From: an uncultured Gammaproteobacteria bacterium
GTDB taxonomy: Bacteria > Patescibacteriota > Microgenomatia > UBA8517
Length of the DNA: 64,000 nucleotides
Assembly: GCA_964645605.1 (NCBI GenBank)
Contig: CAZYCE010000002.1
Coordinates: forward strand, 67,256 to 131,255
Reading direction: 5' to 3'
Below the pieces are notes generated by a model. The model had not been told where the DNA came from and made no database searches. It saw only the letters and a program-made list of their open reading frames with translations. Shown in pieces: positions 1 to 17,999 of this stretch. Each line of letters opens with the position of its first letter. The first letter of the stretch is position 1. A program made the translations under genes and the position numbers.

Positions 1-180
1 ACCTATTACCTTGAGCCCTGTATGGCCTTGCAGGTGCCTTAAGTGAGCTCTGGCGACTCTTCTTTTGATAGGATGAGTCAGCCATTGGGAAATCGGATTG
101 TGTCTTGCAAAAACATCCTCAGGCGGAAGCTTGGGAGTAACCCACCATTTGACGAATTTGTTAATTTTTTTCTGTTGCAT
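1..180 (-). CDS. Possible partial CDS running off the window edge (N-terminal ~60 aa: MQQKKINKFVKWWVTPKLPPEDVFARHNPISQWLTHPIKRRVARAHLRHLQGHTGLKVIG...); function unknown
   Basis: Open minus-strand frame from the ATG at 178-180 to position 1 with no stop. It overlaps the 3' end of ddl by ~20 nt. Too short for the ORF track. No recognisable motif. Confidence 0.25.
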   Translation of the reverse strand, partial: MQQKKINKFVKWWVTPKLPPEDVFARHNPISQWLTHPIKRRVARAHLRHLQGHTGLKVIG

Positions 181-1156
181 ATCTAATAATATCACCAAGT
201 AGACGCGAATATGACATGCCTTTTGCCTTTGCTGCTTTCGGTAAAAGCGACATCGGAGTGAGTCCCGGAATAGTGTTAATCTCCAAGACAACCGGTTCTC
301 TATTATCTTTCAAAATAAAATCAACCCTCCCAAATCCTCGACAACCGACTGTTTGGTAAACTTTAATTGCCAGTTTCTGGACTTTTTCGGTTAGAGCTTT
401 TGAAATTCTGGCAGGAACGATTTCTTCCGACCCGCTTTCGGTATATTTACTTTCATAATCAAAAAAATTTCCCTTCAACGGAATTATCTCCACTAACGGC
501 AATGCGATAGGTTTATCGTTCCCAAGAACCGAACAGGTTAACTCAATCCCCTCTAAATATTCCTCCACCAATACCTTGTGGCTAAACTTGTGTGCAAGTG
601 CCAGTGATTTTTTAAGTTCTTTAGCATTTCTGGCAATCGAAGCTCCGACTGAAGAACCTTGATTATATGGCTTAACAAAGCATGGAAATTTAGTCGAGTT
701 TTTTGGAGTTCGAATCCCCGCACTGTCCATTATTTTTTTAAACATTTCTTTATCCATACCTATAGCAGACGCCAAGACCCCAGCGCCTGTATAAGTAACG
801 CCCGCCAAATCAAGCATCCCTTGAACCGTTCCGTCTTCACCAAATGGTCCATGCATTGCGATAAATACAACATCGACCTTCTTTTCATTTATCGAATTGG
901 CACCAGAGATATTTTGTGTGTTAGACAACACGATTTCCTTAGAAGTGCCTCTCAAACTGAGGATGTTGTCCAAATCTAAAAGTGATTTTTTATCTGTTAA
1001 TTTCCAGGTTAAACCGTCTTTTGAAACAACAACTGGTAAAACTTCATATTTTTTTGAGTCCAAATTTTTAACAACCTCCGAACCAGAAATAATAGACACT
1101 TCATGTTCCGGTGATTTTCCACCCATTAGAACCATTATTCTTAGTTTTCTTTTCAT
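161..1156 (-). CDS. ddl: D-alanine--D-alanine ligase (ATP-grasp)
   Basis: 331 aa. The N-terminus MVLMGGKSPEHEVSIISG and the ATP-grasp core (EEYLEGIELTCSVLGN, GRVDFIL) are typical of Ddl. It sits at the end of the dcw cluster. Confidence 0.9.
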   Translation of the reverse strand: MKRKLRIMVLMGGKSPEHEVSIISGSEVVKNLDSKKYEVLPVVVSKDGLTWKLTDKKSLLDLDNILSLRGTSKEIVLSNTQNISGANSINEKKVDVVFIAMHGPFGEDGTVQGMLDLAGVTYTGAGVLASAIGMDKEMFKKIMDSAGIRTPKNSTKFPCFVKPYNQGSSVGASIARNAKELKKSLALAHKFSHKVLVEEYLEGIELTCSVLGNDKPIALPLVEIIPLKGNFFDYESKYTESGSEEIVPARISKALTEKVQKLAIKVYQTVGCRGFGRVDFILKDNREPVVLEINTIPGLTPMSLLPKAAKAKGMSYSRLLGDIIRYATEKN

Positions 1157-1164
1157 TTATGATT

Positions 1165-2004
1165 TTATTCTGATTGTAGTTCTATTTTTTTTAATTGCCC
1201 TCGAATTTTTCCACCAAGAAACATTTCAGCCACTTTAGTAAATCTTGGTGTTAAATCAGTGACATAAAACACGATACTACCATTTTTCTTTTGAACGTTC
1301 AGTAATTTATTCTCCTCAAGGTATGCGGCAACCTCGCGGGCAACTGATTTACCCGGGTTAATTAGGTTTATTTTTTCTCCTAATTCCTTTTTTATTGTAT
1401 CCTCAATTATTGGATAATGTGTACAACCCATAATCAAAGTGTCGATATTCTGCTCCTTTAATTCCTTCAAATATCTTTTTGCAATTATTTTCAAGGCTGG
1501 GCTTTCAATCTCCCCTTCTTCGATAAAAGGAACAAAAAGCGGACACGCAACACTGAAAACTTTTATTCCGGAGCGTAATTTTGAAATCTTTTCGGGGTAA
1601 GCATGGCTCCCGACGGTTCCGCGTGTACCGATAACTCCAATTCTTTCTCCCTTTTTTACGGCATCTATCGAGGCCGGCTCAATTACTTCAAAAACGGGCG
1701 CTTTTTTAAATTTATTTTTTATGTAACCTGCCGCAACAGCCGAAGATGTGTTGCAGGCAATTACAACAATTTTGACTTTTTTGGTTAACAGAAATTTAGT
1801 ATTATCTATCGAAAATTTTCTGATTGTCGCAGTTCCCCTTGGCCCATAGGGAACTCTGGCCGTATCCCCTAGATACACGATATCTTCATGGGGAAGAATT
1901 TTCATCAATTCCTTGACAACGGTAAGTCCGCCAAGCCCTGAATCAAAAACCCCAATTGGACGGTTATTTAATTTCTGCATTAAGGGTATTATACGACAAT
2001 TCAC
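1165..2004 (-). CDS. murI: Glutamate racemase
   Basis: IGVFDSGLGGLTV, VIACNTSSA and GCTHYP match the two-cysteine racemase motifs. The true start is probably the internal Met at ~1980 (MQKLNN...). Confidence 0.9.
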   Translation of the reverse strand: MNCRIIPLMQKLNNRPIGVFDSGLGGLTVVKELMKILPHEDIVYLGDTARVPYGPRGTATIRKFSIDNTKFLLTKKVKIVVIACNTSSAVAAGYIKNKFKKAPVFEVIEPASIDAVKKGERIGVIGTRGTVGSHAYPEKISKLRSGIKVFSVACPLFVPFIEEGEIESPALKIIAKRYLKELKEQNIDTLIMGCTHYPIIEDTIKKELGEKINLINPGKSVAREVAAYLEENKLLNVQKKNGSIVFYVTDLTPRFTKVAEMFLGGKIRGQLKKIELQSE

Positions 2005-3013
2005 ATATCCGCTTTTGCCCGTCTTCCGTTAATTGTGGACCAAGGGGTAAATATATTATTTTTTGCTTTTTTGTCCATTTAGATCCTTCAAGCTCCAATC
2101 TCACAAATATTTTGTTAATTCTAAGCTTTTCTACGATTTTTGCCGCATTCTTTTTGTGTAAAATAACCGGATAGCCGCGTATGTTCCTTTTATTGCTTTC
2201 TGAAATTAATAATTTTTGAGGAAGTACACTACCCAGCTTTCTTTCATAATAAGATGCTTGCCTCTTTTTTATGTTTCTAATTTTTTTAATATTTATCCGA
2301 ATACTTAGAAATTTTGAGATAAAACCACCTCTTGCCGGAAGTTTGCTATCTCCGATCAAATTGTATCCGCGAACCATCAGCCTTTCTGCAATCTTGCCAA
2401 ATTTGAATGACCAGGCCAAAACCATTAAAAACCAAAGGGTCTTCACTTTTACTGAATAAAAAAATGATTGGTAGAAAGGTGGCGCGGAAAAATCCAAATC
2501 TTCAGTTCTTCCGTAAACATTTGAGCCCTGAAGAGGCAAGACTTTTCTTAAACTATCAATGACGAAATGGTTTTTCTTAATAATCTCAATTTCATTCGGT
2601 TCTATTATTCTATGAACACAATCCTCAACTAAGAACCTATTCCCCGTCGCCTTCTTAAGCCATTCAACATTATTCATTAAATTGGTTTTAATTCCGACCG
2701 GATGAAATATTACAACGACTGCTGGATTAAATTTATTTATCTTGTTTTCAAAATCATCTTTGTCAGCTTTCAGGTTGGGAAGAATTTTATAGTGTGCCAC
2801 CTTATATCCATGTTTTTTGATATTACTTTCCACATCAACGCAATAAAAATCAGGAATTAGGATATAAGAGCCCTTAGCAACATTTCTTTTAATCAGAATA
2901 TCCCACAATGCATCTTCCCAAGAAAGATAGAAAAGCCGCTTTATACCTTTAGTTATTTTATTTTTGCGAAACCGAAAATTTTTCAGACTAAGCACGGGCT
3001 GCGATGTTATCAT
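1964..3013 (-). CDS. Hypothetical protein with a DegT/DnrJ/EryC1-like PLP-dependent aminotransferase fold (tentative)
   Basis: 349 aa. SWEDALWDILIKRNVAKGSYILIPDFYCVDVESNIKKHGYKV resembles the DegT N-terminal pattern (sGTdAL...GDEVIvPsfTf.at..ai..G). FLVEDCVHRI resembles the EDaAha motif. SLRKVL may be the Lys-containing segment. Confidence 0.45.
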   Translation of the reverse strand: MITSQPVLSLKNFRFRKNKITKGIKRLFYLSWEDALWDILIKRNVAKGSYILIPDFYCVDVESNIKKHGYKVAHYKILPNLKADKDDFENKINKFNPAVVVIFHPVGIKTNLMNNVEWLKKATGNRFLVEDCVHRIIEPNEIEIIKKNHFVIDSLRKVLPLQGSNVYGRTEDLDFSAPPFYQSFFYSVKVKTLWFLMVLAWSFKFGKIAERLMVRGYNLIGDSKLPARGGFISKFLSIRINIKKIRNIKKRQASYYERKLGSVLPQKLLISESNKRNIRGYPVILHKKNAAKIVEKLRINKIFVRLELEGSKWTKKQKIIYLPLGPQLTEDGQKRICELSYNTLNAEIK

Positions 3014-3032
3014 AGCTGAGAATTATATACTA

Positions 3033-5354
3033 TCAATGTTTGAGGCTTAATACGGCTTCTTTGAATTTGTTACCGCGATCTTTGTAGTTTTTGAACATAT
3101 CAAAACTGGCTGCGGCCGGAGACAAAATTACCACACCACCGCGTTTGGTTATTTTATGCGCCGCTTCAATAATTTCAATCATTGCGACGTGCCCTAAACT
3201 AATTATATTTTTTCCGGAAATATTACCGCCAATTTTTTCACCCATGTCCCCAATTAAAATTAGATTTTTAACATTCGACTTCCCTCTAATTACTTTTCTT
3301 AATTCTGAATAGTCCAGACCTTTATCACTTCCCCCAAGAATTAACGTTTCATCTTCCGTAAAAGAGTTTATCGCCGCAATTGTCGGTTGAGGTCCTGTGG
3401 CGAATGAATCGTTGTAATATTTGACGCCATCAATTTCAGCAACAAGCTCGAGTCTATGCTCCAAACCTTTGAAACTTCTTACAACATTCAAAATAGTTTT
3501 CTCGTCTACCCCAATTGTCTTGCAGGTTGCAACGGCAGCCGCAATATTTTCCAGATTATGCTCGCCCCGAAGCAGAATCCTCTCTTTATATTTTTTATCA
3601 AGCTTTTCTTTGGAGAAAAATACTACTTTACCGCCGGTGATTTCCGCAAAAGATTTAGGTGTCTCGTATCCCTCATTAATAATCCCGAAGTCTAAATCGG
3701 ATTGATATCGGACTATATTCTTTTTGGCATCTATATACTCTTCCCTGTTTTTATGCCAATCCATATGGTCTTTAGTTATATTTAAAACAACAGAAACGTG
3801 CGGACTTTTTTCCATATCAATTAGTTGGAAAGATGAAAGTTCCAAAACTACCCAAGAATTTTCCGTAAGTTTTGGGAGAATTTCAAGCGAAGGCTTACCG
3901 ATATTGCCACTCAGATAAACATCGCGGTCGTCTGCCTTTAAAATTTCGTAAATTAATGTTGATGTGGTTCCTTTTCCTTTTGTACCCGTAATCCCGATTA
4001 TTTTTCCGGGGCATTCATTAAAAAAAATTTTAATCGCTGACGTAATAACAGTCCCTCCGTTTTTTGCCTCCGTTATCTCCGGTATAAAGGGATAAACCCC
4101 CGGGGATCTGACAATGTAGTCAAAACCGGTAATGCCGTTTTTCAAATAACCGGAACCGCAAACAATTTGTATTTTTGATTTATCAATATTTTCAAAATCC
4201 AATTCGTTCTCCTGTTTTTTGTCAAAAAGAGTAACGCTAGCGTTCCGTTTCAATAAATATTTGATTGCGTCCTTTCCCTCAATGCCCAACCCTAATACTG
4301 CCACCTTCTTACCATCGTATAGCGAGCTTTGCTTATCTGCATGTTTCTCCGTATCAAAATTTATTAATTGGACTTCTCTTTCAAGATTGATTCCGAATTT
4401 TTTCTTAACGTCCTTAATAATCATCTCGGAAAGATCATAAACATCCTTAGCCGTTGCATGCCCCGTTTTATTGATCAGAACGAGGGCGTGTTTTGGAGAA
4501 ACCGCCGCCCCCCCAAGTTCTTTGCCTTTCAACCCCGCGTTTTCAATAAGCCAACCGGCAGAGACTTTGTACTTGTTTTCAAAAGGATAAATTTTAATAT
4601 TGGGGTACTTTTTAATAAGCTCATTCTTTTTATCTAAATTAATGATTGGGTTTTTAAAAAATGATCCAGCGTTGCCAAATTCTCTAGGGTTTTCCAATTT
4701 TTGATTTCTGAGCTTAAGCACACCTTCACGGATTTCTTTCAACGAATCATTTTCTCCGAGGATGTCTTTAAGTGATTCATAAGACATCTTGCTCTTACCG
4801 TTTTTGTTAAGTTTAAACGTAACATTTAATATTAAAAACTTTTGTCGGAAACCAGCTCTTTTAAAAATACTATCTCTGTATTCAAAATGGCAGTTTTCCT
4901 TTTCAAAAGTAACTATCGAGTCGTTAGAAAGATCATACGCTTCGAGTTTATAGAATGTGTCGGCAATTTCCGACCCATATGCACCGATGTTTTGTACAGG
5001 AGAAGCTCCGACCGTTCCCGGTATTCCCGAGAGGCATTCCAATCCCTGCAATCCCTCCTCAACAGAAATCTTAACAAGATCGTCCCATTTCATACCAGCT
5101 TCAGCCGTAATGTATTCTCCATCCACATGGTAAGAATCACCCACGTACTTTATTACCAAACCATTAAAATCTTTATCGCTGGCAACGAAATCACTTCCTC
5201 CACCCAAAATAAATATCGGAAGATTGTTGCTTCGGGCAAATTTGGCTGCCTCCGCCAAATCATCTATGTTTTTTACCTCGATGTAGTATTTTATTTTTCC
5301 ACCAACCCGGAATGTCGTCAGATTTTTAAAATATTTATCTTGTCGAAATTTCAT
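3033..5354 (-). CDS. murB-murD: Fusion protein: UDP-N-acetylenolpyruvoylglucosamine reductase (MurB, N-terminal) joined to UDP-N-acetylmuramoyl-L-alanine--D-glutamate ligase (MurD, C-terminal)
   Basis: 773 aa single frame. aa 1-~335 carry the MurB FAD-binding ILGGGSDF and the C-terminal SAGWLIENAGLKGKELGGAAVSPKHALVLIN. aa ~345-773 carry the MurD Rossmann KKVAVLGLGIEGKDAIKYL, the P-loop GITGTKGKGTT and a Mur-ligase C-terminal domain. Confidence 0.85.
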   Translation of the reverse strand: MKFRQDKYFKNLTTFRVGGKIKYYIEVKNIDDLAEAAKFARSNNLPIFILGGGSDFVASDKDFNGLVIKYVGDSYHVDGEYITAEAGMKWDDLVKISVEEGLQGLECLSGIPGTVGASPVQNIGAYGSEIADTFYKLEAYDLSNDSIVTFEKENCHFEYRDSIFKRAGFRQKFLILNVTFKLNKNGKSKMSYESLKDILGENDSLKEIREGVLKLRNQKLENPREFGNAGSFFKNPIINLDKKNELIKKYPNIKIYPFENKYKVSAGWLIENAGLKGKELGGAAVSPKHALVLINKTGHATAKDVYDLSEMIIKDVKKKFGINLEREVQLINFDTEKHADKQSSLYDGKKVAVLGLGIEGKDAIKYLLKRNASVTLFDKKQENELDFENIDKSKIQIVCGSGYLKNGITGFDYIVRSPGVYPFIPEITEAKNGGTVITSAIKIFFNECPGKIIGITGTKGKGTTSTLIYEILKADDRDVYLSGNIGKPSLEILPKLTENSWVVLELSSFQLIDMEKSPHVSVVLNITKDHMDWHKNREEYIDAKKNIVRYQSDLDFGIINEGYETPKSFAEITGGKVVFFSKEKLDKKYKERILLRGEHNLENIAAAVATCKTIGVDEKTILNVVRSFKGLEHRLELVAEIDGVKYYNDSFATGPQPTIAAINSFTEDETLILGGSDKGLDYSELRKVIRGKSNVKNLILIGDMGEKIGGNISGKNIISLGHVAMIEIIEAAHKITKRGGVVILSPAAASFDMFKNYKDRGNKFKEAVLSLKH

Positions 5355-6550
5355 TTGAGTAATTCAACCGCTTTCCTTGCCCACAAATAACTTTTTCCTG
5401 CACCCATGACAACAATTACCCTATAATTTCTATTTTCTAATTTCAAATTTCTAAACATATTCTCGATGCTGTCAAACGCCTCAATGTTTTTATGTTTGGA
5501 TGCGTCGGCCACTTTTTGGGGAGTGATAGACTTATCGACTTCATCTCGAGCCTGAAAAATCGGACCGATAAACACTTTATCGGCTGCGTCAAAAACCCCA
5601 CTATACATGCGTAAGAGTGCCCCGGTACGTTTATATCCATGGGGTTCGTCAATAACCAAAATTTTTGCTTTTGGATATTTTTCGCGGACTCCCTTAAGGG
5701 TTTCTCTTATAGCCGTAGGATGGTGGGCGTAGTCATCGTAGACCTTAATCTCGTTTTCTCCTGAAATAAGTTCAAGTCTTCTTCCGATTCCGCCAAACGA
5801 TTCTAAGGATTTAACTATTTCGCTCTCACTGATGCCCAATTTTTTCCCTAAGACATAAACCATATTTGCATTCTTTTGGTTAAACTCTCCCATTATCCTC
5901 AAATTGAAATGCCTATGGGGACTATCCTCCGGAGTAATTAAAATCCTTTCCCCCTTTAAATTATTTATAAATTTATCAAACGAGCTTTTGACTTCCTCTT
6001 CGTCTTTGAAAAAGTCGGGGTGATCAAATTCAATATTATTTATAATTGCTATATCCGGATGGTAATGTAAAAAGTTGTTATTAAACTCATCCGCCTCGAC
6101 AACTGCATATTCCCCATTACCAAAACGTGAGTTTCCATTCCATTCGGGAACAAATGCTCCGACAACAATCGTGGGGTTAAACCCCGCATCAATAAGCATT
6201 TTTCCGGCCATTGCAGTGGTGGTGGATTTTCCATGGGTGCCTGCAATACAAATCAATTTTTTGTTTTTGAGAAGAACTGTCCCCAAAAATTCCTGCCAAG
6301 TCATTAGCTTGTTTTGTTTTTTGGCCTCAATAATCTCCGGATTATTACCACTTTGGTAAAGCACTGCAGGGCTTACAACTACCAAATCGGCCTCTGGGAC
6401 ATGAGAGGCGCTGTGTCCCTGAACAATCCCCTTTCTATATGCGGTATTGGCTTCGAGGTCGCAACCGCTAACTTCGTATCCAAATTTTTCCGCTAAATAA
6501 GCTACACCCGAAATGCCGCTTCCTCCGATTCCGACAAAGTGAATATGCAT
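5351..6550 (-). CDS. murC: UDP-N-acetylmuramate--L-alanine ligase
   Basis: 399 aa. HFVGIGGSGISGVA, P-loop GTHGKSTTTAM and DDYAHHP match MurC. It overlaps the murB-murD start by 4 nt. Confidence 0.9.
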   Translation of the reverse strand: MHIHFVGIGGSGISGVAYLAEKFGYEVSGCDLEANTAYRKGIVQGHSASHVPEADLVVVSPAVLYQSGNNPEIIEAKKQNKLMTWQEFLGTVLLKNKKLICIAGTHGKSTTTAMAGKMLIDAGFNPTIVVGAFVPEWNGNSRFGNGEYAVVEADEFNNNFLHYHPDIAIINNIEFDHPDFFKDEEEVKSSFDKFINNLKGERILITPEDSPHRHFNLRIMGEFNQKNANMVYVLGKKLGISESEIVKSLESFGGIGRRLELISGENEIKVYDDYAHHPTAIRETLKGVREKYPKAKILVIDEPHGYKRTGALLRMYSGVFDAADKVFIGPIFQARDEVDKSITPQKVADASKHKNIEAFDSIENMFRNLKLENRNYRVIVVMGAGKSYLWARKAVELLK

Positions 6551-6585
6551 TCTTTATGCTTGTATTATATCAGCATTCACGGCAA

Positions 6586-7062
6586 TCAAACACTTTTAAG
6601 AAGGTTTTTATCGATAATTTCCTGAAGGCTTCCAACAACATATTTAGGCACAACCTTAGTCTCTAAATCCTTATACCTTCCCCGTCTGACCCGGACAACA
6701 AAGAATCCTTTGGCCACTCCTGCCTCAATAACTTCAGGTTTATCATCAATTAATACCACTTTTTTTTCAGATTCATTTACAACGTTCATTTTAGAGAAAC
6801 TTGAAAATATTTGAACTCCGTCTGTAAAAAATTTTTCTATCCCGGTTCCTATTATCTTTTCCATTTGAAATTTCTTATCCCCCTCCGAAAATAAAACCGT
6901 ATCGCCAAAACCTGAAGCGTATTTAATAAACGGGATCGCATCCGGATAAAGAAAGTCTTTGTAGTTTATATGCGCGGGAGAGTCCGATAGATGCTTTACA
7001 AATTCCCCGGTATTAAAAATTGTATGATCGAAGTCAATAAAGATTTTCACTCCCTTTTCCAT
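6586..7062 (-). CDS. Small HAD-superfamily hydrolase (probable phosphatase)
   Basis: 158 aa. Motif I FIDFDHT (DxDxT) and motif IV VLIDDKPEV are present. Confidence 0.7.
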   Translation of the reverse strand: MEKGVKIFIDFDHTIFNTGEFVKHLSDSPAHINYKDFLYPDAIPFIKYASGFGDTVLFSEGDKKFQMEKIIGTGIEKFFTDGVQIFSSFSKMNVVNESEKKVVLIDDKPEVIEAGVAKGFFVVRVRRGRYKDLETKVVPKYVVGSLQEIIDKNLLKSV

Positions 7063-7064
7063 TA

Positions 7065-8303
7065 TTAGTCTTCTACCTTCGACCCCACCCCGTACGAACC
7101 TTTTAGAATTTTGCCGGGAAAAACGACAGATCCTTCTCCAATTATGGTTCCGGGCATTGTAGAAACACGAATACCCACTTTTACCCCGTCGCCCATGAAA
7201 ACTCCAATATTACTTACTCCGGTTTCGACATTTGTTCCTTTAACTTTAGCCGACACCGGAGACCTGTCCAATCTCTTATTTGCAGTTATAAATCCCGCTC
7301 CAACTCTACAATTTTTTCCGATAATGGAGTCCCCGACAAAACCGGAGTGAATATGTGTTCCCTCGCCGATAAGAGAATTTTTGACATCGCAATATCTTTC
7401 AATCTCCGTACCGTTTTCCAGTATTGTTCCCGCGCGGACCTGGCTATATGCACCCACCACTGCATTTTTTCCTATGTAACAAGGCCCTTCAATCAGCGCA
7501 AAATCGTAAATATGGGCACCCTCGCCTATGAATATTCCTTCGCCCTTAAGAATAGCTGTCTTTTCAATGACTGCAGTCGGATCAACACCTTCACCAACCT
7601 CCGATAATATGAAATCTTTAAGTTTCATAAGATCCCAAGGATATTTCAAAGACGGTAAGTTCGAGGAAACACGGACCGAGCCGACTTTTCCGTTTTTGGC
7701 TTCTTTATCTAAAACAAACTCTAAAGAATAATCTGTAACGGGGCTTTCCGCTAGTTTATTAAGAAAATCAAGCGATAGAAGGTAAACTCCGACAAGCCGC
7801 ATGTTTGATGGTTCCTTTCCTGCGTCAGGCTTTTCGACCACGCCCTGCACCTTATCCGCCTGAAGCTCGACAATCCCATATTTAGAGGGAGTATCCGTCT
7901 CTGTTATGCCGACGGTCACAGAGTCCCCTGATTTTTCGTGTGCCTCGATAAAGCTGTCGGCAATAGAATGAAAATTAAATTGATTAGCATTTATCACGAA
8001 AAAATCGTCCTTAATGAGTTCTTTTGCCGATAAAATTGCGTCCCCTTGGCCCAGAGGACTTTCTTCCCTAACAAACTTTACGTCGGAAAAAACGGGGAGT
8101 GATTCACAAATGGTTTTTTCTTTTTCGAAATCCTTCGAACCTAAAACCAATATGATTTCCGAGGGATTAAGCTTTTTCACACTCTCAATGGTTCTTTCCA
8201 GAATTGTTTTACCGGCAATACTGAAAAAGCTCTTATGAATATTGTTGAAAGGGAAAAATCTTGAAGATTCTCCGCCAGCCAATATTACAACCTGATATTT
8301 CAT
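7065..8303 (-). CDS. GlmU-like bifunctional sugar-1-phosphate nucleotidyltransferase / left-handed beta-helix acetyltransferase
   Basis: 412 aa. The N-terminus has VILAGGESSRF (nucleotidyltransferase G-rich loop). The C-terminus has multiple hexapeptide repeats (IGKNAVVG..., IGEGTHIHSGFVGDSIIGKNCRVGAG). This is the GlmU / archaeal-type architecture. Confidence 0.7.
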   Translation of the reverse strand: MKYQVVILAGGESSRFFPFNNIHKSFFSIAGKTILERTIESVKKLNPSEIILVLGSKDFEKEKTICESLPVFSDVKFVREESPLGQGDAILSAKELIKDDFFVINANQFNFHSIADSFIEAHEKSGDSVTVGITETDTPSKYGIVELQADKVQGVVEKPDAGKEPSNMRLVGVYLLSLDFLNKLAESPVTDYSLEFVLDKEAKNGKVGSVRVSSNLPSLKYPWDLMKLKDFILSEVGEGVDPTAVIEKTAILKGEGIFIGEGAHIYDFALIEGPCYIGKNAVVGAYSQVRAGTILENGTEIERYCDVKNSLIGEGTHIHSGFVGDSIIGKNCRVGAGFITANKRLDRSPVSAKVKGTNVETGVSNIGVFMGDGVKVGIRVSTMPGTIIGEGSVVFPGKILKGSYGVGSKVED

Positions 8304-8304
8304 A

Positions 8305-9600
8305 TTATTTGCCCATATATTCTCTCACAATTTCCTGGTCAGACCAAGGAATTTCATGAATTCCGTCTAAATTCATGGATTTTTCATGCCCTTTTCCAAA
8401 TATACCGACGCTATCGCCTTTGCCGGCGTTTTTAAGTGCAATGCCGATTGCCTTTTTTCTGTCCGGCTCTTCTATTACTTTTACTTTTGAATCTTTAGAT
8501 TCCATGCCCGATTTTATCTCGGCAATTATATCTTCTACCTTTTCACTCCTGGGGTCCTCTGCCGTAAGAATCACTTCATCGGCCAATCTTGATGCAATTT
8601 TCCCCATTTTCGGGCGCTTAAAAGGATCTCTTTCACCCGCACATCCGAAAACCGCAATCAGTTTTCCCCGGGTTTTCCCGCGTAAATATTTTAATACGGC
8701 TTCAAGAGACTCGGGAGTATGGGCAAAATCAACAACAATTTTAATACCTTTAGAATTCTTAATTTCTTCAAATCTCCCCTCCGGCATGTTAAAAGACTCC
8801 ATTGTTTTGAGAGCAGATTCTTTATCTATGCCCAAAAATTCCATTGTTTTCAGAGCGATCTCGATATTTAAGTTATTAAATTTACCCGGAAGTATGTCCA
8901 AATCGGTATCAACGGGACCTAATACTTTATACCTACAGGAGTCTATAAAAGACTTTTTTACCCTTTTATATTCTTCAAAGGTCTTGTGATAGTCCAGATG
9001 CTCAGGTGCTATATTAGTCAAAACCCCTATATCAAAAGAGATTCCGGCAATCCTTTTCTGATCAATTCCATGGGAACTAACCTCGATAATGGCGTATTGC
9101 ATTCCTGCGTCGACCATTTCCTTCAAAAACCCGTGAAGAGAGATAGCGTCCGGGGTTGTGACATGGAAGCCTGTATCGATTTCCCTATCTCCGATTTTTG
9201 CGGCATTCGAGGTCACCAAACCGACTTTTTTGCCGAGCCTACTAAGCATGTGGTAAATGATAAAGCAGGTTGTCGTTTTACCCTTCGTGCCGGTTACACC
9301 GATTATTTTAAGCTTTTGTGAAGGATCTCCAAACCAAGCGGAGGCGAGGATCCCAAGCGCCTCACGGGAATCTTGGACTTTGATATAACCAGCATTCTCA
9401 ATTTCAAGCTCTTCTTCACCTACTATTATTTTTGCTCCATTTTTTATTGCCTCTCCAATATATTTGTGACCGTCAGAATGCAGGCCCTTCACGGCAACAA
9501 AAATATAGTTTTCTTTGACTTTGCCGGAGTTCGCTGAAATTCCCGAATATTTGGAGATGTTTTTTTTCAGCTCACTAAGATTTTGGTAAATGCTCTCCAT
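8305..9600 (-). CDS. murE: UDP-N-acetylmuramoyl-L-alanyl-D-glutamate--2,6-diaminopimelate (or L-Lys) ligase
   Basis: 431 aa. P-loop GVTGTKGKTTT, HVTTPD and the Mur-ligase central and C-terminal domains are present. Confidence 0.85.
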   Translation of the reverse strand: MESIYQNLSELKKNISKYSGISANSGKVKENYIFVAVKGLHSDGHKYIGEAIKNGAKIIVGEEELEIENAGYIKVQDSREALGILASAWFGDPSQKLKIIGVTGTKGKTTTCFIIYHMLSRLGKKVGLVTSNAAKIGDREIDTGFHVTTPDAISLHGFLKEMVDAGMQYAIIEVSSHGIDQKRIAGISFDIGVLTNIAPEHLDYHKTFEEYKRVKKSFIDSCRYKVLGPVDTDLDILPGKFNNLNIEIALKTMEFLGIDKESALKTMESFNMPEGRFEEIKNSKGIKIVVDFAHTPESLEAVLKYLRGKTRGKLIAVFGCAGERDPFKRPKMGKIASRLADEVILTAEDPRSEKVEDIIAEIKSGMESKDSKVKVIEEPDRKKAIGIALKNAGKGDSVGIFGKGHEKSMNLDGIHEIPWSDQEIVREYMGK

Positions 9601-11026: not shown

Positions 11027-11824
11027 TTAATTCAGCCTATCAAGAAGGCTTCCCGCCCCCCGGTCAAGAATAAAGGTAACGGCCGGATGTAGTCTTAAAA
11101 ACGAGGCAGGGGCATCCTCACAAACATCCCCTTCTAAGACCTTTTTCATTCCCGCCGCTTTACCCGAACCTTTAGCTATTAGAATTATTCTCTTTGATTC
11201 CATTATGTCTGCGATTCCCTGTGTTATAGCCAAGTGGGGAACCTTGCTTTCGTCTCCGTCGAAAAATCTGGCATTCGCTTTAATAGTTTCGGAATCGATT
11301 CGAACCAACCTGGTTCTGGAATCAACTTTTGAACCGCGTTCGTTAAAGGCGATATGACAGGTAAGACCCGGTCCTATACCCAAAACGGTTAGATCGGAAG
11401 GCCCTATTTCTTTCAGGACTGATTGGTACCTGACCACTTCATCCTCCGGATCTTCAGCCGAAGAATCGGGAATGTGCCTATGGCTCGCGGGGATGTTGAC
11501 ATGATCAAAAAGATTATCCCGCATAAAACGATAATAGCTCTGTGGATGGTCCTTTGGCAACGGCCAGTATTCGTCGAGATTCTTTGTGATTACCTTGCTC
11601 ATATCCAGTTTTTTTTCGCGGTACGCTTCAATCATCAAACTATATAGGCCCAAAGGGGAGAATCCCGTGGCTAAGGTAAGTACTGCATCGGGTTTTCCGA
11701 GAATGGTATCAGCCATGATATCAAAGGCGTATTTATCAACCTCAGCACCTGAAGGCAACAAAACCACATCGGGCGAGGATACCTGAAGATTTTCTGACAG
11801 CGAACTCAAAAATTCGGATGTCAT
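11027..11824 (-). CDS. nagB: Glucosamine-6-phosphate deaminase / 6-phosphogluconolactonase family (NagB-like)
   Basis: 265 aa. VLTLATGFSP and LGIGPGLTCHIAFNERGS resemble the NagB LGIGPDGHIAFNEP active-site segment. Confidence 0.7.
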   Translation of the reverse strand: MTSEFLSSLSENLQVSSPDVVLLPSGAEVDKYAFDIMADTILGKPDAVLTLATGFSPLGLYSLMIEAYREKKLDMSKVITKNLDEYWPLPKDHPQSYYRFMRDNLFDHVNIPASHRHIPDSSAEDPEDEVVRYQSVLKEIGPSDLTVLGIGPGLTCHIAFNERGSKVDSRTRLVRIDSETIKANARFFDGDESKVPHLAITQGIADIMESKRIILIAKGSGKAAGMKKVLEGDVCEDAPASFLRLHPAVTFILDRGAGSLLDRLN

Positions 11825-11879
11825 ATAGTTATTAACTATCTATATCATTTTACACCCCTTATGCAAGCCGGTTGTCAAT

Positions 11880-13655
11880 TTATTTCACAGTAACGGATTT
11901 TGCTAAATTTCTGGGTTTATCCGGATCTAAGCCTTTTTTTATCGTTAAATAATAGGCAAGAATTTGTGCCGCAACAATTTCCGGAATAATGGAAGCCTCT
12001 CCTGCATCGGCAATGTGTATATAATAATCAAACACCTCATGTGGCTTATAGGAAATACCTATAATATACCCTCCTCTGGCTCTCATTTCCATGGCACCTG
12101 CGAGATTTGCACCGTATGTTTCATCATTGGGTAGAAAGCTAATGCAAGGTGTTCCCTTTTCTACAAGTGCCAGAGGACCGTGTTTTAGCTCGCCTGCCGC
12201 CAAACCTTCAGCGTGAATATATGAAACTTCTTTTATTTTTAGGGCTGTCTCTAAACTTGCCGGATAAGAAAGGCCCCGCCCAATTACGTAAATATGATCC
12301 TTGTTTACGATTTTAGATGCCAAGAGGTCAATTTTTTTCAAAGATTTCGGTGAAAGTACTTCCTTAACTGAGGCTACTGAAGCCATAAGCGCTTTCCTGC
12401 CTTCCTCCACCCCACCATTAAGTGAATTAGCCAAAAGTATAAGATGGGATAGCATCCCCGTCAGAGCTTTGGTGGAAGCAACTGCTCTTTCCTGTCCGGC
12501 ACCAATCAGCATTTTGTAGTCTGAAAGTCTATAAAGTGAAGATCCAGGAACATTGACTAAACCCAATATTTTTGCCCCCTTATCCTTTGCTTTTTTTACG
12601 GACTCGAGGATATCCATGGTCTCGCCCGACTGAGAAATCGCTATCACGAGACTGTCTTTATTTAAAAAATCAAGACTGTACCCAAACTCGCTGCCGATTG
12701 CCCAATTTACATGCCTTTTGGCAATCTTCGAGAAAAGATAGGAACCCGCCAAACAAGCATAAGAAGCCGTCCCGCAACCTACCAAATATGTTCCCCGTGC
12801 ATTTTTAATTATTTTGGCAATTCTTTCCGTCTGAGCGGATGCCGAAATGGCAATGTCTCCCATGATTTGAGGCTGTTCAAAAATTTCTTTGAGCATAAAG
12901 TGTTCATATTTTCCTTTTTTATCCACATCAACCTTCCAATCTAGTTTTTGAATATGCGGAATTATCTTTTTGCCGGTTTTAACATTTAAAATTGTCACTT
13001 TATCGGGTGAAAGAATTGCCATTTCATTGTCTTCAAGAAAATAGATTTCCTTTGTATAGCTAATAAGCGAAGAGGCGTCGCTTGCAAGGAAATTTTCATT
13101 TTTACCGTATCCTATTGCCAGGGGTGATCCGTTTCTGGCGGCTATAATTAAATTTTCCTTTGCGCTTACCGCAATTATGGCATTAAGCCCTTCCATCCGA
13201 TTAAAAGTTTTTCTTACAGACTCAACAAAAGTCCCGGTTTTGGAATAATCCTCAATTAGATGAGAAAGCGTCTCCGTGTCTGTTTCGGAGGTAAACTTAT
13301 GACCATTTGTAAGTAATTCTTTTTTTATACCCTCGTAATTCTCAAAAATTCCATTATGAATAACAGCAACTGTTTTTGTACAATCAAGAAGGGGATGGGC
13401 ATTAGCTTCCGTCACTCCTCCGTGTGTTGCCCAACGCGTATGGCCGAATGATAAATGGCTCTTAGGGAGGTTGTCGACATTGGCATTTCCGATTTTCCCG
13501 ATCCTCTTTTTGACTACAATTTTGCTTTCTTTACCAATGGGGATAACCCCGACTCCCCAGCTATCATACCCACGATATTCAAGGCTTTTCAGACCCTTAA
13601 AAACAATGCTCTGTCCGTTATCTTTGTAGCCGATATATCCGAATATTCCGCACAT
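11880..13655 (-). CDS. glmS: Glutamine--fructose-6-phosphate aminotransferase (isomerizing)
   Basis: 591 aa. The N-terminal MCGIFGY Ntn-amidotransferase domain is followed by two SIS domains and a C-terminal ...VTVK. Confidence 0.95.
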   Translation of the reverse strand: MCGIFGYIGYKDNGQSIVFKGLKSLEYRGYDSWGVGVIPIGKESKIVVKKRIGKIGNANVDNLPKSHLSFGHTRWATHGGVTEANAHPLLDCTKTVAVIHNGIFENYEGIKKELLTNGHKFTSETDTETLSHLIEDYSKTGTFVESVRKTFNRMEGLNAIIAVSAKENLIIAARNGSPLAIGYGKNENFLASDASSLISYTKEIYFLEDNEMAILSPDKVTILNVKTGKKIIPHIQKLDWKVDVDKKGKYEHFMLKEIFEQPQIMGDIAISASAQTERIAKIIKNARGTYLVGCGTASYACLAGSYLFSKIAKRHVNWAIGSEFGYSLDFLNKDSLVIAISQSGETMDILESVKKAKDKGAKILGLVNVPGSSLYRLSDYKMLIGAGQERAVASTKALTGMLSHLILLANSLNGGVEEGRKALMASVASVKEVLSPKSLKKIDLLASKIVNKDHIYVIGRGLSYPASLETALKIKEVSYIHAEGLAAGELKHGPLALVEKGTPCISFLPNDETYGANLAGAMEMRARGGYIIGISYKPHEVFDYYIHIADAGEASIIPEIVAAQILAYYLTIKKGLDPDKPRNLAKSVTVK

Positions 13656-13666
13656 ATTTTGAGTAA

Positions 13667-14683
13667 TTAATCTGCCGAGTTGAGAGAATCCACCACCTTT
13701 AAAATGGCTTTACGGAGTTTATTGGAATCATGCCTGATAATGCTGCGGAAAAGCTTGTCGCCTTTCTCTTTTTTGGGTAGCTTGTCAGACAAAAGATCTG
13801 TCCGAATTATGCGAACATTCGGATTGACTTGACCTATTTTTAAATCATCTTCGATGGGAAAATTATCCATTTCCGCATAAGCTCTTAGGGCAGCTTTGGG
13901 ATAGTTCGTATTATTATTAACCAAAACGTAATCAAAGAGCGTGAGAGGCATGTATTTTTTGAGATCTTCAAAAAAATCAGACAGAGAATAGTAGGGAGTT
14001 TCACTCATGGAATTCATTAGATTGCCGATAAACATAATTTTTCCTTTTGTATTATTGAGTGCTCCGACTACCCCATCCACAACCAAGTCTGCAATCGTGT
14101 TTGTATAAAAACCTCCGGGACCGATAATTATCAGATCGGCATCAAGAATTGCTTTTTCCGCTTCTTTGTTTATTTTTGCTTTTGGCGTCGTTGTCAAATT
14201 TTTAATTCTGCTGCCGGGATATTTGGGAACGTCTATATTATGTTCGCCTATCACCTTTTTACCGTTTTCATACTCCGCAACCAACCTCACATTGTCATAG
14301 CTAATCGGAAAAATATCTCCTCTTACCTGCAATAGACGACATGTTTCCTCTATCCCTTTTTTCTGGGATCCCATTATGTCGGCCATTGCCGCCATAAACA
14401 AATTACCGAAAGTCATTCCGTCTAATCCCTTGCCGCCTTTACTGTATCGATAAGTAAAAAGTTTCCGGAGCACTGTCTTATTTTCGGAAAGTGCCACTAT
14501 CGCTTGCCTAATCCCGGATGTCGGTAAAAGACCAAACTCGTCACGGATTATGCGATTTGATCCTCCGTCATCAACCATTGTCATAAGCATTGTTATGTGT
14601 ACCGGGGCGGAGCTTAAACCGGAAGCAACAACATAAGAGCCTGTTCCTCCCCCGATGATCACAATTTCAGGAATTTTATTCAT
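13667..14683 (-). CDS. YvcK/CofD-family (UPF0052) gluconeogenesis factor-like protein
   Basis: 338 aa. IVIIGGGTGSYVVASGL and DLIIIGPGGFYTN are typical of the YvcK/CofD family. Confidence 0.8.
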   Translation of the reverse strand: MNKIPEIVIIGGGTGSYVVASGLSSAPVHITMLMTMVDDGGSNRIIRDEFGLLPTSGIRQAIVALSENKTVLRKLFTYRYSKGGKGLDGMTFGNLFMAAMADIMGSQKKGIEETCRLLQVRGDIFPISYDNVRLVAEYENGKKVIGEHNIDVPKYPGSRIKNLTTTPKAKINKEAEKAILDADLIIIGPGGFYTNTIADLVVDGVVGALNNTKGKIMFIGNLMNSMSETPYYSLSDFFEDLKKYMPLTLFDYVLVNNNTNYPKAALRAYAEMDNFPIEDDLKIGQVNPNVRIIRTDLLSDKLPKKEKGDKLFRSIIRHDSNKLRKAILKVVDSLNSAD

Positions 14684-15932
14684 TTTTTTCTAAGATTTCG
14701 GCCCCTAGAGATTTTAATCTTTCAGCAATATTTTCATACCCTCTGGCAACTACTTCAACATTTTCTATTTCACTCCGGCCCTCCGCGCAAAGGGCGGCTA
14801 AAATTACCGAGATACCCGCCCTAATATCTTTGCAGAATAGTCTATCACTCATAAGAGGGGTTGCTCCGCTAACTATTACGCGATGAGGGTCGGCTATAAA
14901 TATCTTCGCCCCCATAGAAATTAGGTCGTCAACAAAAAACATTCTCCATTCATACATCCAGTCATGACAGACAACTGTTCCTTCAGTCTGTGTTGCCAAA
15001 ACAATAAAAGGACTCATCAAATCTGTCGGAAAACCCGGCCATGGACGTGTCTGGAACTTTCCCCTGGTGGAAACAAGCTTTGACGGCAAAACCATTAAAG
15101 AATGGTCGGTTTGTTTAAAGTTCACACCCATATACCTCAAATAATTCATAATCATCGGGTAACGCCCGGCGTCAAAATCTTCAATTTCCACTTTTCCTCC
15201 GGTTATGGCTGCGGCAATGGCAAAAGTACCGCCCTCAATATGATCCGGGCAAATTTTATGTTTAACGCCCCTAAGTTTATCTCCTTTGATTCGCAGGACA
15301 TTAGATCCGATTCCATCGATGTGTGCGCCCATTTCTACAAGCATTTCAGCCAAATTGGTTACATGAGGTTCTGTTGCGGCATCCTCAATGGTAATGCCTG
15401 AAGAAAGTGACGAGGCCATCATAAGTCCCATCTCGGTCGCGGTAACTGAAGGCTCATCAAGAAATACATTTACAGGTTTTCGTTTCTTCCAATCAAGGTA
15501 AAATCTGCCGTCTTTACGTCTAATTTCAACGCCCATTCTTTGCATCATGGCGAAATGGGTATCCAAGAGCCTTTCTCCAATTTGATCGCCCCCGGGAGGG
15601 GTAACAATTGTTTTGCCAAACTTGACCAAAAGAGGAGCCGCCAAAACGACCGACGCTCTGAATCTTGAGGCCAAATCGGGATCAGGGTCAAACGAGTTAA
15701 GCCCCCGTGGATCTATGGTAATTTCATGATCACGCTTTTCAACCTTCACTCCGAGACGGGAGATCATATCAAGCATCACTGCCACATCGGAAATATCGGG
15801 CACGTTTGTTAGTACCGTTGGGGAATCTGCCAGAAGCGCTGCCGGGATTAACTTTAAAGCCGAGTTTTTGTTGCCGGACAGTTTGATTGCGCCTTCAAGC
15901 TTGTTTCCGCCCTGCACAATAAATTTCGACAT
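14676..15932 (-). CDS. murA: UDP-N-acetylglucosamine 1-carboxyvinyltransferase, with Asp at the fosfomycin-target position
   Basis: 418 aa. KLSGNKNSALKLIPAALLA is the MurA N-terminus. The active-site loop reads PPGGDQIGERLLD, versus E. coli PGGCAIGARPVD. Confidence 0.9.
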   Translation of the reverse strand: MSKFIVQGGNKLEGAIKLSGNKNSALKLIPAALLADSPTVLTNVPDISDVAVMLDMISRLGVKVEKRDHEITIDPRGLNSFDPDPDLASRFRASVVLAAPLLVKFGKTIVTPPGGDQIGERLLDTHFAMMQRMGVEIRRKDGRFYLDWKKRKPVNVFLDEPSVTATEMGLMMASSLSSGITIEDAATEPHVTNLAEMLVEMGAHIDGIGSNVLRIKGDKLRGVKHKICPDHIEGGTFAIAAAITGGKVEIEDFDAGRYPMIMNYLRYMGVNFKQTDHSLMVLPSKLVSTRGKFQTRPWPGFPTDLMSPFIVLATQTEGTVVCHDWMYEWRMFFVDDLISMGAKIFIADPHRVIVSGATPLMSDRLFCKDIRAGISVILAALCAEGRSEIENVEVVARGYENIAERLKSLGAEILEKNE

Positions 15933-15951
15933 TCTGATAATTGGTATTGTA

Positions 15952-17661: not shown

Positions 17662-17662
17662 A

Positions 17663-17995: not shown

Positions 17996-17999
17996 ATTG

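What the first reader, a model, noticed from the sequence alone, without database searches (positions are those of the whole stretch)
3033..5354. In-frame MurB-MurD fusion ORF
A single 773-aa frame carries a complete MurB (FAD-binding GGGSD; C-terminal SAGWLIENAGLKGKELGGAAVSPKHALVLIN) joined by a short linker (~aa 335-345, nt ~4320-4350) to a complete MurD (Rossmann VAVLGLGIEGKD; P-loop GITGTKGKGTT). MurB and MurD catalyse non-consecutive steps, with MurC between them, and murC follows immediately with a 4-nt overlap. Known Mur fusions such as MurC-Ddl and MurE-MurF join other pairs, so this pairing is, to my knowledge, unusual. It may reflect a compact PG-precursor assembly line.
Basis: seen in the sequence. 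Interest (0 to 1): 0.7.

Follow-up and report, generated by a model that had tools for sequence, protein, structure and literature searches.

The report
Real MurB–MurD fusion enzyme gene
One gene in this uncultured Patescibacteria-type genome encodes two complete cell-wall precursor enzymes (MurB and MurD) as a single protein; this pairing is absent from the one published fusion survey I could read, recurs in relatives, and follows from their unusual murC-murB-murD gene order.

Summary
Window 3033..5354 (minus strand) is one 773-aa ORF. It carries a full-length type-I MurB (aa 1-333), a 15-aa linker (aa 334-348) and a full-length MurD (aa 349-773). Both halves score above the NCBIfam equivalog cut-offs and keep every catalytic residue I mapped against E. 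coli.

The junction is not an assembler error. A second assembler reproduced it exactly. A second sequencing run reads through the position where unfused relatives have the murB stop codon.

The pairing follows from gene order. In this Woesebacteria/Microgenomates-like clade the genes run murC-murB-murD. Relatives show every state: all separate, MurC-MurB, MurB-MurD, and MurC-MurB-MurD triple fusions.

The window's fusion looks young. Its nearest MurD relatives are standalone, and the linker replaces the stop codon, spacer and MurD leader of those relatives. The model gives two confident folds joined by a disordered linker, with no confident overall domain arrangement (pTM 0.58). Co-expression or co-localisation, or a near-neutral fusion, therefore fits better than substrate channelling.

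MurB-MurD is missing from the main published survey of Mur chimeras and from the text searches I ran. It is a new combination within a known phenomenon. Interest is moderate.

The parts
3033..5354 (-). murB-murD fusion ORF, 773 aa plus stop
   Evidence: 100% identical to the NCBI protein P0001.
4356..5354 (-). MurB module (aa 1-333), type I UDP-N-acetylenolpyruvoylglucosamine reductase. FAD_binding_4 lies at 4908-5291 and MurB_C at 4362-4736.
   Evidence: Alignment to E. coli MurB 1mbb maps R160, Y192, K219, S231, N235 and E327 onto E. coli R159, Y190, K217, S229, N233 and E325. Foldseek TM-score normalised to the target is 0.89-0.90 against solved MurB structures.
4311..4355 (-). 15-aa linker DTEKHADKQSSLYDG (aa 334-348), private to this lineage
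   Evidence: Alignment of 47 fused homologues. pLDDT below 50 at aa 335-343. It occupies the position of the stop codon, spacer and MurD leader of unfused relatives. No hairpin is predicted here.
3033..4310 (-). MurD module (aa 349-773), UDP-MurNAc-L-Ala:D-Glu ligase. MurD-like_N lies at 4044-4310, Mur_ligase_M at 3570-3992 and Mur_ligase_C at 3114-3458.
   Evidence: Mapping to E. coli MurD gives K461, T463, N484, E505, H530, K544, N600, N603, R634, D649, T653, K678, S750 and Y757. Foldseek TM-score normalised to the target is 0.71-0.75 against solved MurD structures.
5351..5354 (-). ATGA overlap: the murC stop codon TGA shares bases with the fusion's ATG start
   Evidence: Sequence shown.
5351..6550 (-). 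murC, 399 aa, directly upstream. It catalyses the step between MurB and MurD.
   Evidence: The TIGR01082 score is 322 bits, just under the 335 cut-off, with all three Mur ligase domains present.
1964..3013 (-). Conserved 349-aa gene directly downstream: a very divergent DegT-like fold-type-I PLP enzyme of unknown substrate
   Evidence: no sequence-level family or solved-structure match. Searches give the alignment, model and fold match. Syntenic after murD in L081, L082, L085 and L088.
161..2004 (-). murI (1165-2004) and ddl (161-1156), downstream members of the same gene string
6586..9600 (-). Upstream members: murE (8305-9600), an NTP-transferase/hexapeptide GlmU-like gene (7065-8303), and a 158-aa ORF with no family (6586-7062)
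11027..18878 (-). Further upstream cell-wall genes: mraW (18000-18878), ftsI-type PBP (15952-17661), murA-like EPSP_synthase-family gene (14676-15932), CofD/YvcK-like gene (13667-14683), a 591-aa ORF I read as glmS from its translation alone, with no family search run (11880-13655), and a glucosamine-6-P isomerase-family gene (11027-11824)

Best explanation
This is a genuine gene fusion that encodes one polypeptide with two independent, catalytically competent enzymes. The N-terminal half is a type-I MurB, which reduces UDP-GlcNAc-enolpyruvate to UDP-MurNAc using FAD and NADPH. The C-terminal half is MurD, which adds D-Glu to UDP-MurNAc-L-Ala using ATP. A roughly 15-residue flexible tether joins them.

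The fusion arose recently in this lineage of a Patescibacteria (Microgenomates/Woesebacteria-like) organism. The murB stop codon was lost, and the former spacer plus MurD leader was read through in frame. This was possible only because the clade's cell-wall cluster places the genes in the order murC-murB-murD.

MurC performs the intervening step. It is made from the same message and is translationally coupled through an ATGA overlap.

The inferred consequence is fixed 1:1 co-production and co-localisation of MurB and MurD, and with MurC a three-step module. Direct channelling between the two fused active sites is not expected, because their reactions are not consecutive. The fusion may be close to neutral.

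What is shown: the ORF, both families, the catalytic residues, the reproducibility of the junction, and the recurrence in relatives. What is inferred: the mutational origin, expression as one protein, both activities, and the benefit.
For: Architecture and full-length equivalog scores above cut-off come. The MurB catalytic residues are present. The MurD P-loop Lys, the Lys that is carbamylated in E. coli, the Mg and ATP ligands and the D-Glu-binding residues are present, and all but the Ser415 equivalent (99%) are invariant in 120 homologues. The AF2 model has mean pLDDT 87.9, and only the linker falls below 50. Each half superposes on solved MurB or MurD structures, and no solved chain covers both halves.

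Junction reproducibility:
- Logan contig L086 (run SRR13007709) is 100% identical to window 7764..4280. It spans murC, MurB, the whole linker and 10 aa of MurD in frame.
- L087 (run SRR12983700) has 1 mismatch in 2936 nt and reads through ...NFDTEKH, where unfused relatives have their stop.
- The one suspicious same-strand ORF overlap elsewhere in the window that I checked (25811-27311) is two different genes, not a split one.

Recurrence:
- The best 120 hits comprise 51 MurB-MurD, 15 MurC-MurB-MurD and 54 standalone MurD.
- The exact P0002 fusion was found on contigs from two runs, with the same gene neighbourhood.
- 13 GTDB species representatives with the murC-murB-murD string show three of the states. 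L001 and L002 have MurB-MurD fused. L005, L009 and L015 have MurC-MurB fused. Eight have all three genes separate.

Origin: unfused relatives end MurB at ...NF(D/N)*, followed by a 14-37 nt spacer and a 7-8 aa MurD leader. The window's linker has about the same length. In a bootstrapped NJ tree of the MurD part, the window groups with standalone MurDs in 92 of 100 replicates, and the fused proteins of its clade are never monophyletic.
Against: There are no expression or protein data. Only one lineage carries this exact linker: nothing closer than 68% identity was found, and the linker pattern is absent from JGI metagenomes.

Logan contigs from both runs end at or next to the linker. This could reflect strain heterogeneity there. 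It could equally reflect a 30-mer in the conserved MurD N-terminus that is shared with a co-occurring relative.

A pTM of 0.58 and a disordered linker give no support for a defined MurB/MurD interface. The nearest relatives manage without the fusion, so any benefit is small or conditional.
Confidence: 0.82

Rival explanations
1. The fused reading frame is real in the DNA, but the cell makes two proteins. This would happen by internal initiation near the MurD start (for example at the in-frame GTG of V351) or by cleavage in the disordered linker. The fusion would then be functionally equivalent to two separate genes.
For: The linker is predicted to be disordered. The genome hardly uses Shine-Dalgarno sites: 5 of 51 starts have one, against a 16% background, so initiation signals cannot be read from the sequence. 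The nearest relatives make separate proteins.
Against: There is no in-frame ATG in or near the linker. In the large, almost always fused clade MurB runs straight into MurD with no linker, so single polypeptides of this pair are clearly viable and maintained.
Confidence: 0.1
2. The fusion is an artefact or a minority allele. A 1-nt indel or consensus error in the linker hides a murB stop and a separate murD start.
For: The linker contains an out-of-frame ATG in the sequence GGAGAAACATGCAG, at about the place where relatives start murD. Contigs of two independent Logan assemblies break at or beside the linker.
Against: A second assembler gives the identical 45-nt linker in frame, and a second run gives identical sequence past the ancestral stop position. 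The murB frame has no stop anywhere upstream of a hypothetical indel. The conserved Y-x-x-K-K leader motif is in the fusion frame. The GGAG has no meaning in a genome without Shine-Dalgarno usage. The one suspicious ORF overlap I checked (25811-27311) is two distinct genes, not a split one.
Confidence: 0.04
3. One half is a decaying or repurposed copy (a pseudo-enzyme or scaffold), and another gene elsewhere in the genome does the real work.
For: Only about 72 kb of the genome could be inspected. E. coli K319 is F651 here, and T36/R37 are K379/K380.
Against: Those substitutions occur in all (F651), 94% (K380) or 46% (K379) of the 120 homologues, standalone MurDs included, so they are not peculiar to this fusion. 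Every catalytic residue I checked in both halves is kept. Both halves pass equivalog cut-offs. No paralogue lies in the window.
Confidence: 0.03

Closest known systems
MurB/C (MurC-MurB) fusion enzyme of Verrucomicrobium spinosum (PMC4803751). It is listed as the MurC-MurB chimera type, 11% of Mur chimeras, in PMC10214165.
   Same: It is a natural single polypeptide joining MurB to an ATP-dependent Mur ligase. It arose from neighbouring genes. The same MurC-MurB type also occurs in this window's relatives (L005, L009, L015, P0250).
   Different: There the partner is MurC, which catalyses the step that consumes MurB's product. Here the partner is MurD, two steps downstream, and MurB is N-terminal to the ligase.
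MurE-MurF chimera of Bordetella pertussis (PMC6420597; crystal structure in PMC10214165)
   Same: It is a bifunctional Mur fusion in which both halves are independently active. Linker-less and linker-containing forms exist, as they do for MurB-MurD.
   Different: It joins two paralogous ligases that catalyse consecutive steps, and a hydrophobic patch gives a rigid head-to-tail interface. Here two unrelated folds catalyse non-consecutive steps and are joined by a disordered tether.
MurC-Ddl, MurG-MurC and MurD-FtsW chimeras (PMC10214165)
   Same: These are fusions of enzymes that do not catalyse consecutive steps. The authors interpret them as serving stability, stoichiometry or complex assembly rather than channelling.
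   Different: The partners and the phyla differ (Chlamydiae, Firmicutes, Actinobacteria, Proteobacteria). That survey excluded sequences from unidentified species, which would remove MAG-only lineages such as this one.
MurC-MurB-MurD triple fusions of Woesebacteria/Patescibacteria MAGs. These are known from databases only, for example MCX6704465.1 = P0014.
   Same: The MurB-MurD junction is of the same kind and the gene string is the same. Identity over the shared part is 56-61%.
   Different: MurC is also fused, at the N-terminus, and the MurB-MurD junction has no linker. In the window murC is a separate, overlapping gene.
Standalone E. coli MurB (1mbb) and MurD (1uag and others)
   Same: Each half keeps the fold and the catalytic residues of these enzymes.
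   Different: In E. coli they are separate proteins encoded far apart. There murD lies between mraY and ftsW.

Membership tests
MurB (UDP-N-acetylenolpyruvoylglucosamine reductase), type I | Full-length match to a curated equivalog model, above its cut-off | tested here: met
   NF000755 scores 343 bits against a cut-off of 277 and covers profile 3-340 of 343. TIGR00179 scores 232 bits against 144.5.
MurB (UDP-N-acetylenolpyruvoylglucosamine reductase), type I | FAD-binding domain plus the MurB C-terminal substrate domain | tested here: met
   PF01565 at aa 22-149 and PF02873 at aa 207-331. Foldseek TM-score normalised to the target is 0.89-0.90 against 4jay, 3i99 and 1mbb.
MurB (UDP-N-acetylenolpyruvoylglucosamine reductase), type I | Catalytic Arg159/Ser229/Glu325, plus the type-I Tyr190 loop, Lys217 and Asn233 (E. 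coli numbering, from my knowledge of the MurB literature) | tested here: met
   R160, S231, E327, Y192, K219 and N235 align to these residues in 1mbb. R160, S231, E327 and N235 are invariant in 47 fused homologues.
MurB (UDP-N-acetylenolpyruvoylglucosamine reductase), type I | NADPH-dependent reductase activity | not testable with these tools
   This needs an enzyme assay or complementation.
MurD (UDP-MurNAc-L-Ala:D-Glu ligase) | Full-length match to the equivalog model, above its cut-off and better than the MurC, MurE and MurF models | tested here: met
   TIGR01087 scores 365 bits against a cut-off of 212 and covers profile 1-439 of 441. The murC, murE and murF models score 66-82 bits, well below their cut-offs.
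MurD (UDP-MurNAc-L-Ala:D-Glu ligase) | Three-domain Mur ligase build with the MurD-type N-domain | tested here: met
   PF21799, PF08245 and PF02875. Foldseek TM-score normalised to the target is 0.71-0.75 against 3lk7, 7ti7 and 8dp2.
MurD (UDP-MurNAc-L-Ala:D-Glu ligase) | P-loop Lys115, Glu157, His183, carbamylated Lys198, Asn268/Asn271, Arg302, Asp317, and the D-Glu site Thr321, Lys348, Ser415, Phe422 (E. coli numbering) | tested here: met
   K461, E505, H530, K544, N600/N603, R634, D649, T653, K678, S750 and Y757. Three positions differ: K319 is F651 (in all 120 homologues), R37 is K380 (94%) and T36 is K379 (46%).
MurD (UDP-MurNAc-L-Ala:D-Glu ligase) | ATP-dependent D-Glu-adding activity | not testable with these tools
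   This needs an enzyme assay or complementation.
Natural Mur chimeras (fused mur genes) | Two complete Mur enzymes in one uninterrupted reading frame | tested here: met
Natural Mur chimeras (fused mur genes) | The junction is not an assembly artefact | tested here: met
   A second assembler gives the identical junction (L086). A second run reads through the ancestral stop position (L087). Reads themselves were not inspected.
Natural Mur chimeras (fused mur genes) | The same architecture is kept in other genomes | tested here: met
   51 MurB-MurD and 15 MurC-MurB-MurD clusters among the best 120 hits. L001 and L002 among GTDB representatives. P0002 in two runs.
Natural Mur chimeras (fused mur genes) | Produced as one polypeptide with both activities | not testable with these tools
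   No proteomic or biochemical data are available.
Substrate-channelling bifunctional enzyme | The fused enzymes catalyse consecutive reactions, or there is a defined interface or tunnel between the active sites | tested here: not met
   The MurC step lies between the two (established pathway). The linker is disordered and pTM is 0.58.

The most novel reading that the evidence does not exclude
The MurB-MurD fusions, and the MurC-MurB-MurD triple fusions of sister lineages, are covalent snapshots of a physical MurC/MurB/MurD complex. In that complex UDP-MurNAc and UDP-MurNAc-L-Ala would be handed over without release. In the window's organism MurC, made by translational coupling, would dock onto the tethered MurB-MurD pair. 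These small-genome bacteria would then offer a natural, tractable three-step Mur metabolon and direct evidence for the long-proposed cytoplasmic Mur complex.
Probability: 0.15. Interest if true: 0.65.

Novelty: new variant of a known kind. Interest (0 to 1): 0.38.

Why it matters
Fused mur genes are the main genomic argument for a cytoplasmic multi-enzyme Mur complex. That idea is old, and it matters for antibiotic design because a complex could shield active sites from inhibitors.

This clade adds a pairing (MurB-MurD) and a three-enzyme chain (MurC-MurB-MurD) that the published survey did not list. It also shows fused and unfused states switching repeatedly among close relatives. That makes it a natural experiment on whether such fusions are selected or nearly neutral.

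The triple fusions would be good targets for structural work on three consecutive steps. There is also an annotation point: these proteins are currently named only 'MurD' in NCBI records, so automated pathway reconstructions may wrongly report murB as missing from these genomes.

Tried and rejected
1. Relic ribosome-binding site. I considered GGAG followed by an out-of-frame ATG in the linker as a relic murD start or a sign of a frameshift. I dropped the Shine-Dalgarno part because only 5 of 51 gene starts in the window have such a motif, against a 16% background. The ATG may still be a relic, but that cannot be shown.

2. Exact look-up of the fusion protein in the contig index found nothing. 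I reached the junction instead through the neighbouring genes.

3. A back-translated linker pattern gave no match in JGI metagenomes. No independent lineage shares this linker.

4. The GTDB scan picked MurD C-terminal patterns, so most of the 80 loci were plain murD from Clostridia and others. Only 14 spanned both halves, and 13 of these could be scored. Several of those bins carry plainly wrong organism labels ('Gammaproteobacteria', 'Methanosarcinales').

5. The search of 50%-identity representatives gave only two full-length MurB-MurD representatives, P0022 and P0241. The family is therefore narrow, and that search did not widen its taxonomic range.

6. No rRNA, tRNA or Rfam family lies in the window. 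The organism is placed only by the names of relatives.

7. Overlapping same-strand ORFs at 25811-27311 were checked as a possible frameshift indicator. They are two different genes, an ABC ATPase and an ABC permease.

8. Supplementary files of PMC10214165 are not held. I could not check whether minor chimera types there include MurB-MurD.

9. Five text searches found no paper describing the pair.
Full report
**Observation.**
Window 3033..5354 holds one ATG-started ORF of 773 codons on the minus strand.

- Pfam finds FAD_binding_4 (aa 22-149) and MurB_C (207-331). These are followed by MurD-like_N (349-437), Mur_ligase_M (455-595) and Mur_ligase_C (633-747).
- NCBIfam equivalog models match end to end and above their curated cut-offs. 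MurB NF000755 scores 343 bits against 277 and covers profile 3-340 of 343. MurD TIGR01087 scores 365 bits against 212 and covers profile 1-439 of 441. The MurC, MurE and MurF models score far below their cut-offs on the ligase half.
The linker is DTEKHADKQSSLYDG, aa 334-348, window 4311-4355.
- murC (5351..6550) overlaps by ATGA. Because the genes are on the minus strand, murC lies upstream.
- At this base composition an open frame of this length has a chance probability of about 1e-23.

**Are both halves functional?**
Alignment to E. coli MurB (1mbb) places R160, S231 and E327 on the catalytic R159, S229 and E325. It places Y192, K219 and N235 on the type-I substrate-binding Y190, K217 and N233.

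I took E. coli murD from NC_000913.3 and added it to an alignment of 120 MurD parts. This maps the following residues onto their E. coli equivalents, all of them invariant or, for S750, 99% conserved in the 120 homologues:

- K461 and T463 onto the P-loop.
- N484, E505 and H530.
- K544 onto K198, which is carbamylated in E. coli.
- N600, N603, R634 and D649.
- T653, K678, S750 and Y757 onto the D-Glu site.

The departures are K319 to F651 and T36/R37 to K379/K380. They occur in all, 46% and 94% of the 120 homologues respectively, standalone MurDs included, so they are not peculiar to this fusion.

An AlphaFold2 model built on 47 fused homologues has mean pLDDT 87.9. Only aa 335-343 fall below 50, and pTM is 0.58. 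This means two confident folds with no confident overall domain arrangement.

Foldseek and phmmer against the PDB match each half to solved MurB structures (TM 0.89-0.90) or MurD structures (TM 0.71-0.75). No solved chain covers both halves.

**Is the junction real?**
The identical protein is on record only from the NCBI assembly. I therefore looked up the neighbouring genes.

- Logan contig L086 (run SRR13007709) is 100% identical to window 7764..4280. It carries murC, MurB, the whole linker and the first 10 residues of MurD in one frame.
- L085, from the same run, matches window 4309..1. It overlaps L086 by 30 nt. I read that as k minus 1 for an assembler k of 31, which I assume rather than know. 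On that reading it is a graph branch point, not a gap.
- L087, from a different run (SRR12983700), has 1 mismatch in 2936 nt. It matches 7276..4341 and reads ...NFDTEKH, past the place where unfused relatives stop.
- The one suspicious same-strand ORF overlap in the window that I checked is two distinct genes, not a split one.
- Both runs break near the linker. A conserved 30-mer at the MurD N-terminus shared with a co-occurring relative would explain the first break. Strain heterogeneity cannot be excluded without reads.

**Relatives.**
The best 120 database hits comprise 51 MurB-MurD proteins, 15 MurC-MurB-MurD triple fusions and 54 standalone MurDs. The domain order of the triple fusions was confirmed with NCBIfam. 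Source names are Woesebacteria and 'Patescibacteria group'.

Most MurB-MurD proteins have no linker...EVQxIGF runs straight into xKKVAILGYG. The window has 15 extra residues, and P0002-P0005 have 6-9.

At 50% identity clustering only two full-length MurB-MurD representatives appear among the best 150. The family is well populated but phylogenetically narrow.

Among GTDB species representatives, 13 loci carry the murC-murB-murD string:

| State | Loci |
|---|---|
| MurB-MurD fused | 2 |
| MurC-MurB fused | 3 |
| all three separate | 8 |

An NJ tree of the MurD part shows one large clade that is almost entirely fused. The window sits in another clade that is mostly standalone, with scattered fusions.

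In 100 bootstrap replicates the fused members of that second clade are never monophyletic. The window groups with standalone MurDs in 92 replicates. P0002 does so in all 100, and its MurD part is 84% identical to the standalone P0091.

Some fusions (P0056, P0059, P0063, P0064) have a MurB half only 34-37% identical to the window's. P0056, the one I scanned, matches a different MurB model best, while their MurD halves are 58-62% identical. Fused and unfused states have therefore switched several times.

**Origin.**
In the closest unfused relatives MurB ends ...NF(D/N)*. A spacer of 14-37 nt follows, and MurD then starts with a 7-8 residue leader such as MNNYKDKKVAV (L089, L081, L004, L088).

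The window's linker has about the combined length of stop codon, spacer and leader. It keeps the Y-x-x-K-K motif of the leader in frame. Loss of the stop codon with the frame preserved is the simplest route.

By my arithmetic, roughly one random stop loss in eight would give an open in-frame read-through of this length. That fits the observed recurrence.

**Context.**
The gene sits in a complete division and cell-wall cluster, all on the minus strand. The order is:

1. mraW, ftsI, a murA-like gene, a CofD/YvcK-like gene, a 591-aa ORF I read as glmS from its translation only, and a glucosamine-6-P isomerase-like gene.
2. Two unrelated genes.
3. murE, a GlmU-like gene and a 158-aa ORF.
4. murC, murB-murD, a 349-aa gene, murI and ddl.

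Beyond the window's left end the cluster continues with murF, mraY, ftsW, murG, a 223-aa gene, ftsA and ftsZ (L085).

In E. coli murD lies between mraY and ftsW. Here it has moved next to murB, which is what makes this fusion possible.

**Mechanism.**
MurB and MurD do not catalyse consecutive steps, the tether is disordered, and no interface is predicted. Direct channelling between the fused sites is therefore not supported.

The best-supported reading has three parts:

- The protein is bifunctional, with two independent catalytic modules.
- MurB and MurD are made at a fixed 1:1 ratio.
- They are kept together with the translationally coupled MurC.

Because the nearest relatives are unfused, the fusion may be nearly neutral in this lineage. 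The linker-less and triple fusions of the sister clade are long maintained and more likely to be under selection.

**Literature.**
The survey of natural Mur chimeras (PMC10214165) lists MurE-MurF, MurC-Ddl, MurC-MurB, MurG-MurC, MurD-FtsW and MraY-MurG. It excluded sequences from unidentified species. PMC6420597 and PMC4803751 mention no MurB-MurD pair.

Five full-text searches found no description of it. JGI's automatic product names do combine the enzyme names, so the architecture is visible in databases but not discussed.

**Verdict.**
This is a real, correctly read MurB-MurD fusion. It is a new combination within the known class of Mur chimeras, and the clade's gene order explains it. It is of moderate interest, mainly because relatives extend it to a three-step MurC-MurB-MurD chain and because fused and unfused states alternate among close relatives.

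Noticed in passing
window 1964-3013 (-): A 349-aa gene lies directly after murB-murD and has no Pfam, NCBIfam or PDB sequence hit. Its AF2 model is very confident (pLDDT 94.8, pTM 0.92). The model resembles nucleotide-sugar aminotransferases of the DegT/ArnB/PseC type only distantly (TM ~0.55-0.65, 12-15% identity). D131, S154 and K157 ('DSLRK') are invariant in 48 homologues and look like a PLP site. The gene is always found after murD in relatives (L081, L082, L085, L088). Its substrate is unknown. It may be an undescribed step or modification in cell-wall precursor synthesis in Patescibacteria.
   Followed up: partly
L088 2953-2978, L089 1096-1121, L009 ~8073-8104 (the murB-murD spacer of unfused relatives): A perfect palindrome or hairpin sits at, or a few bases after, the murB stop codon. 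L088 has 13+13 nt (TTAACGATGCATT|AATGCATCGTTAA). L089 has 12+12 nt with a 2-nt loop. L009 has 15+15 nt of a different sequence. RNA folding z-scores are -4.1, -4.4 and -5.4. The element is weak in L081 and L004 and absent from the window's linker (z -0.25). It may be an intercistronic stem-loop or an operator that the fusion has removed.
   Followed up: partly
relatives: P0249, P0242, L088 1-683, L005/L009/L015: Other fusions occur in the same gene neighbourhoods: MurI-MurD (glutamate racemase joined to the D-Glu ligase, 718 aa), a Mur ligase joined to MurD (912 aa), MurE joined to an NTP-transferase (673 aa), and MurC-MurB. The first and third combinations, like MurB-MurD, are not among the types listed in PMC10214165.
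   Followed up: no
whole window, 51 minus-strand gene starts: Shine-Dalgarno-like motifs precede only 5 of 51 start codons, below the 16% background. Translation initiation in this genome therefore appears not to rely on Shine-Dalgarno pairing.
   Followed up: partly
window 56000-64000: G+C falls from about 0.40 to about 0.30 over the last 8 kb, which contains a run of minus-strand ORFs. This may be an acquired island or a different gene class. Its content was not examined.
   Followed up: no
window 9575-11018 (-): A PP2C-like phosphatase gene (369 aa) and a 107-aa ORF with no family sit between the glucosamine-6-P isomerase-like gene and murE, inside the cell-wall gene string.
   Followed up: no
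window 27891-39814 (-): A surface-polysaccharide type cluster lies here: a DUF4012 protein, a mannose-1-P guanylyltransferase-like gene, four glycosyltransferases, a PMT_2-family membrane glycosyltransferase and a Wzy/O-antigen-ligase-like gene.
   Followed up: no
L001, L002, L004, L006, L007, L011, L013 (GTDB representatives): Several MAGs that carry this clearly Patescibacteria-type gene string are titled 'uncultured Gammaproteobacteria' or 'Methanosarcinales archaeon' in their records. These are probably mislabelled bins.
   Followed up: no
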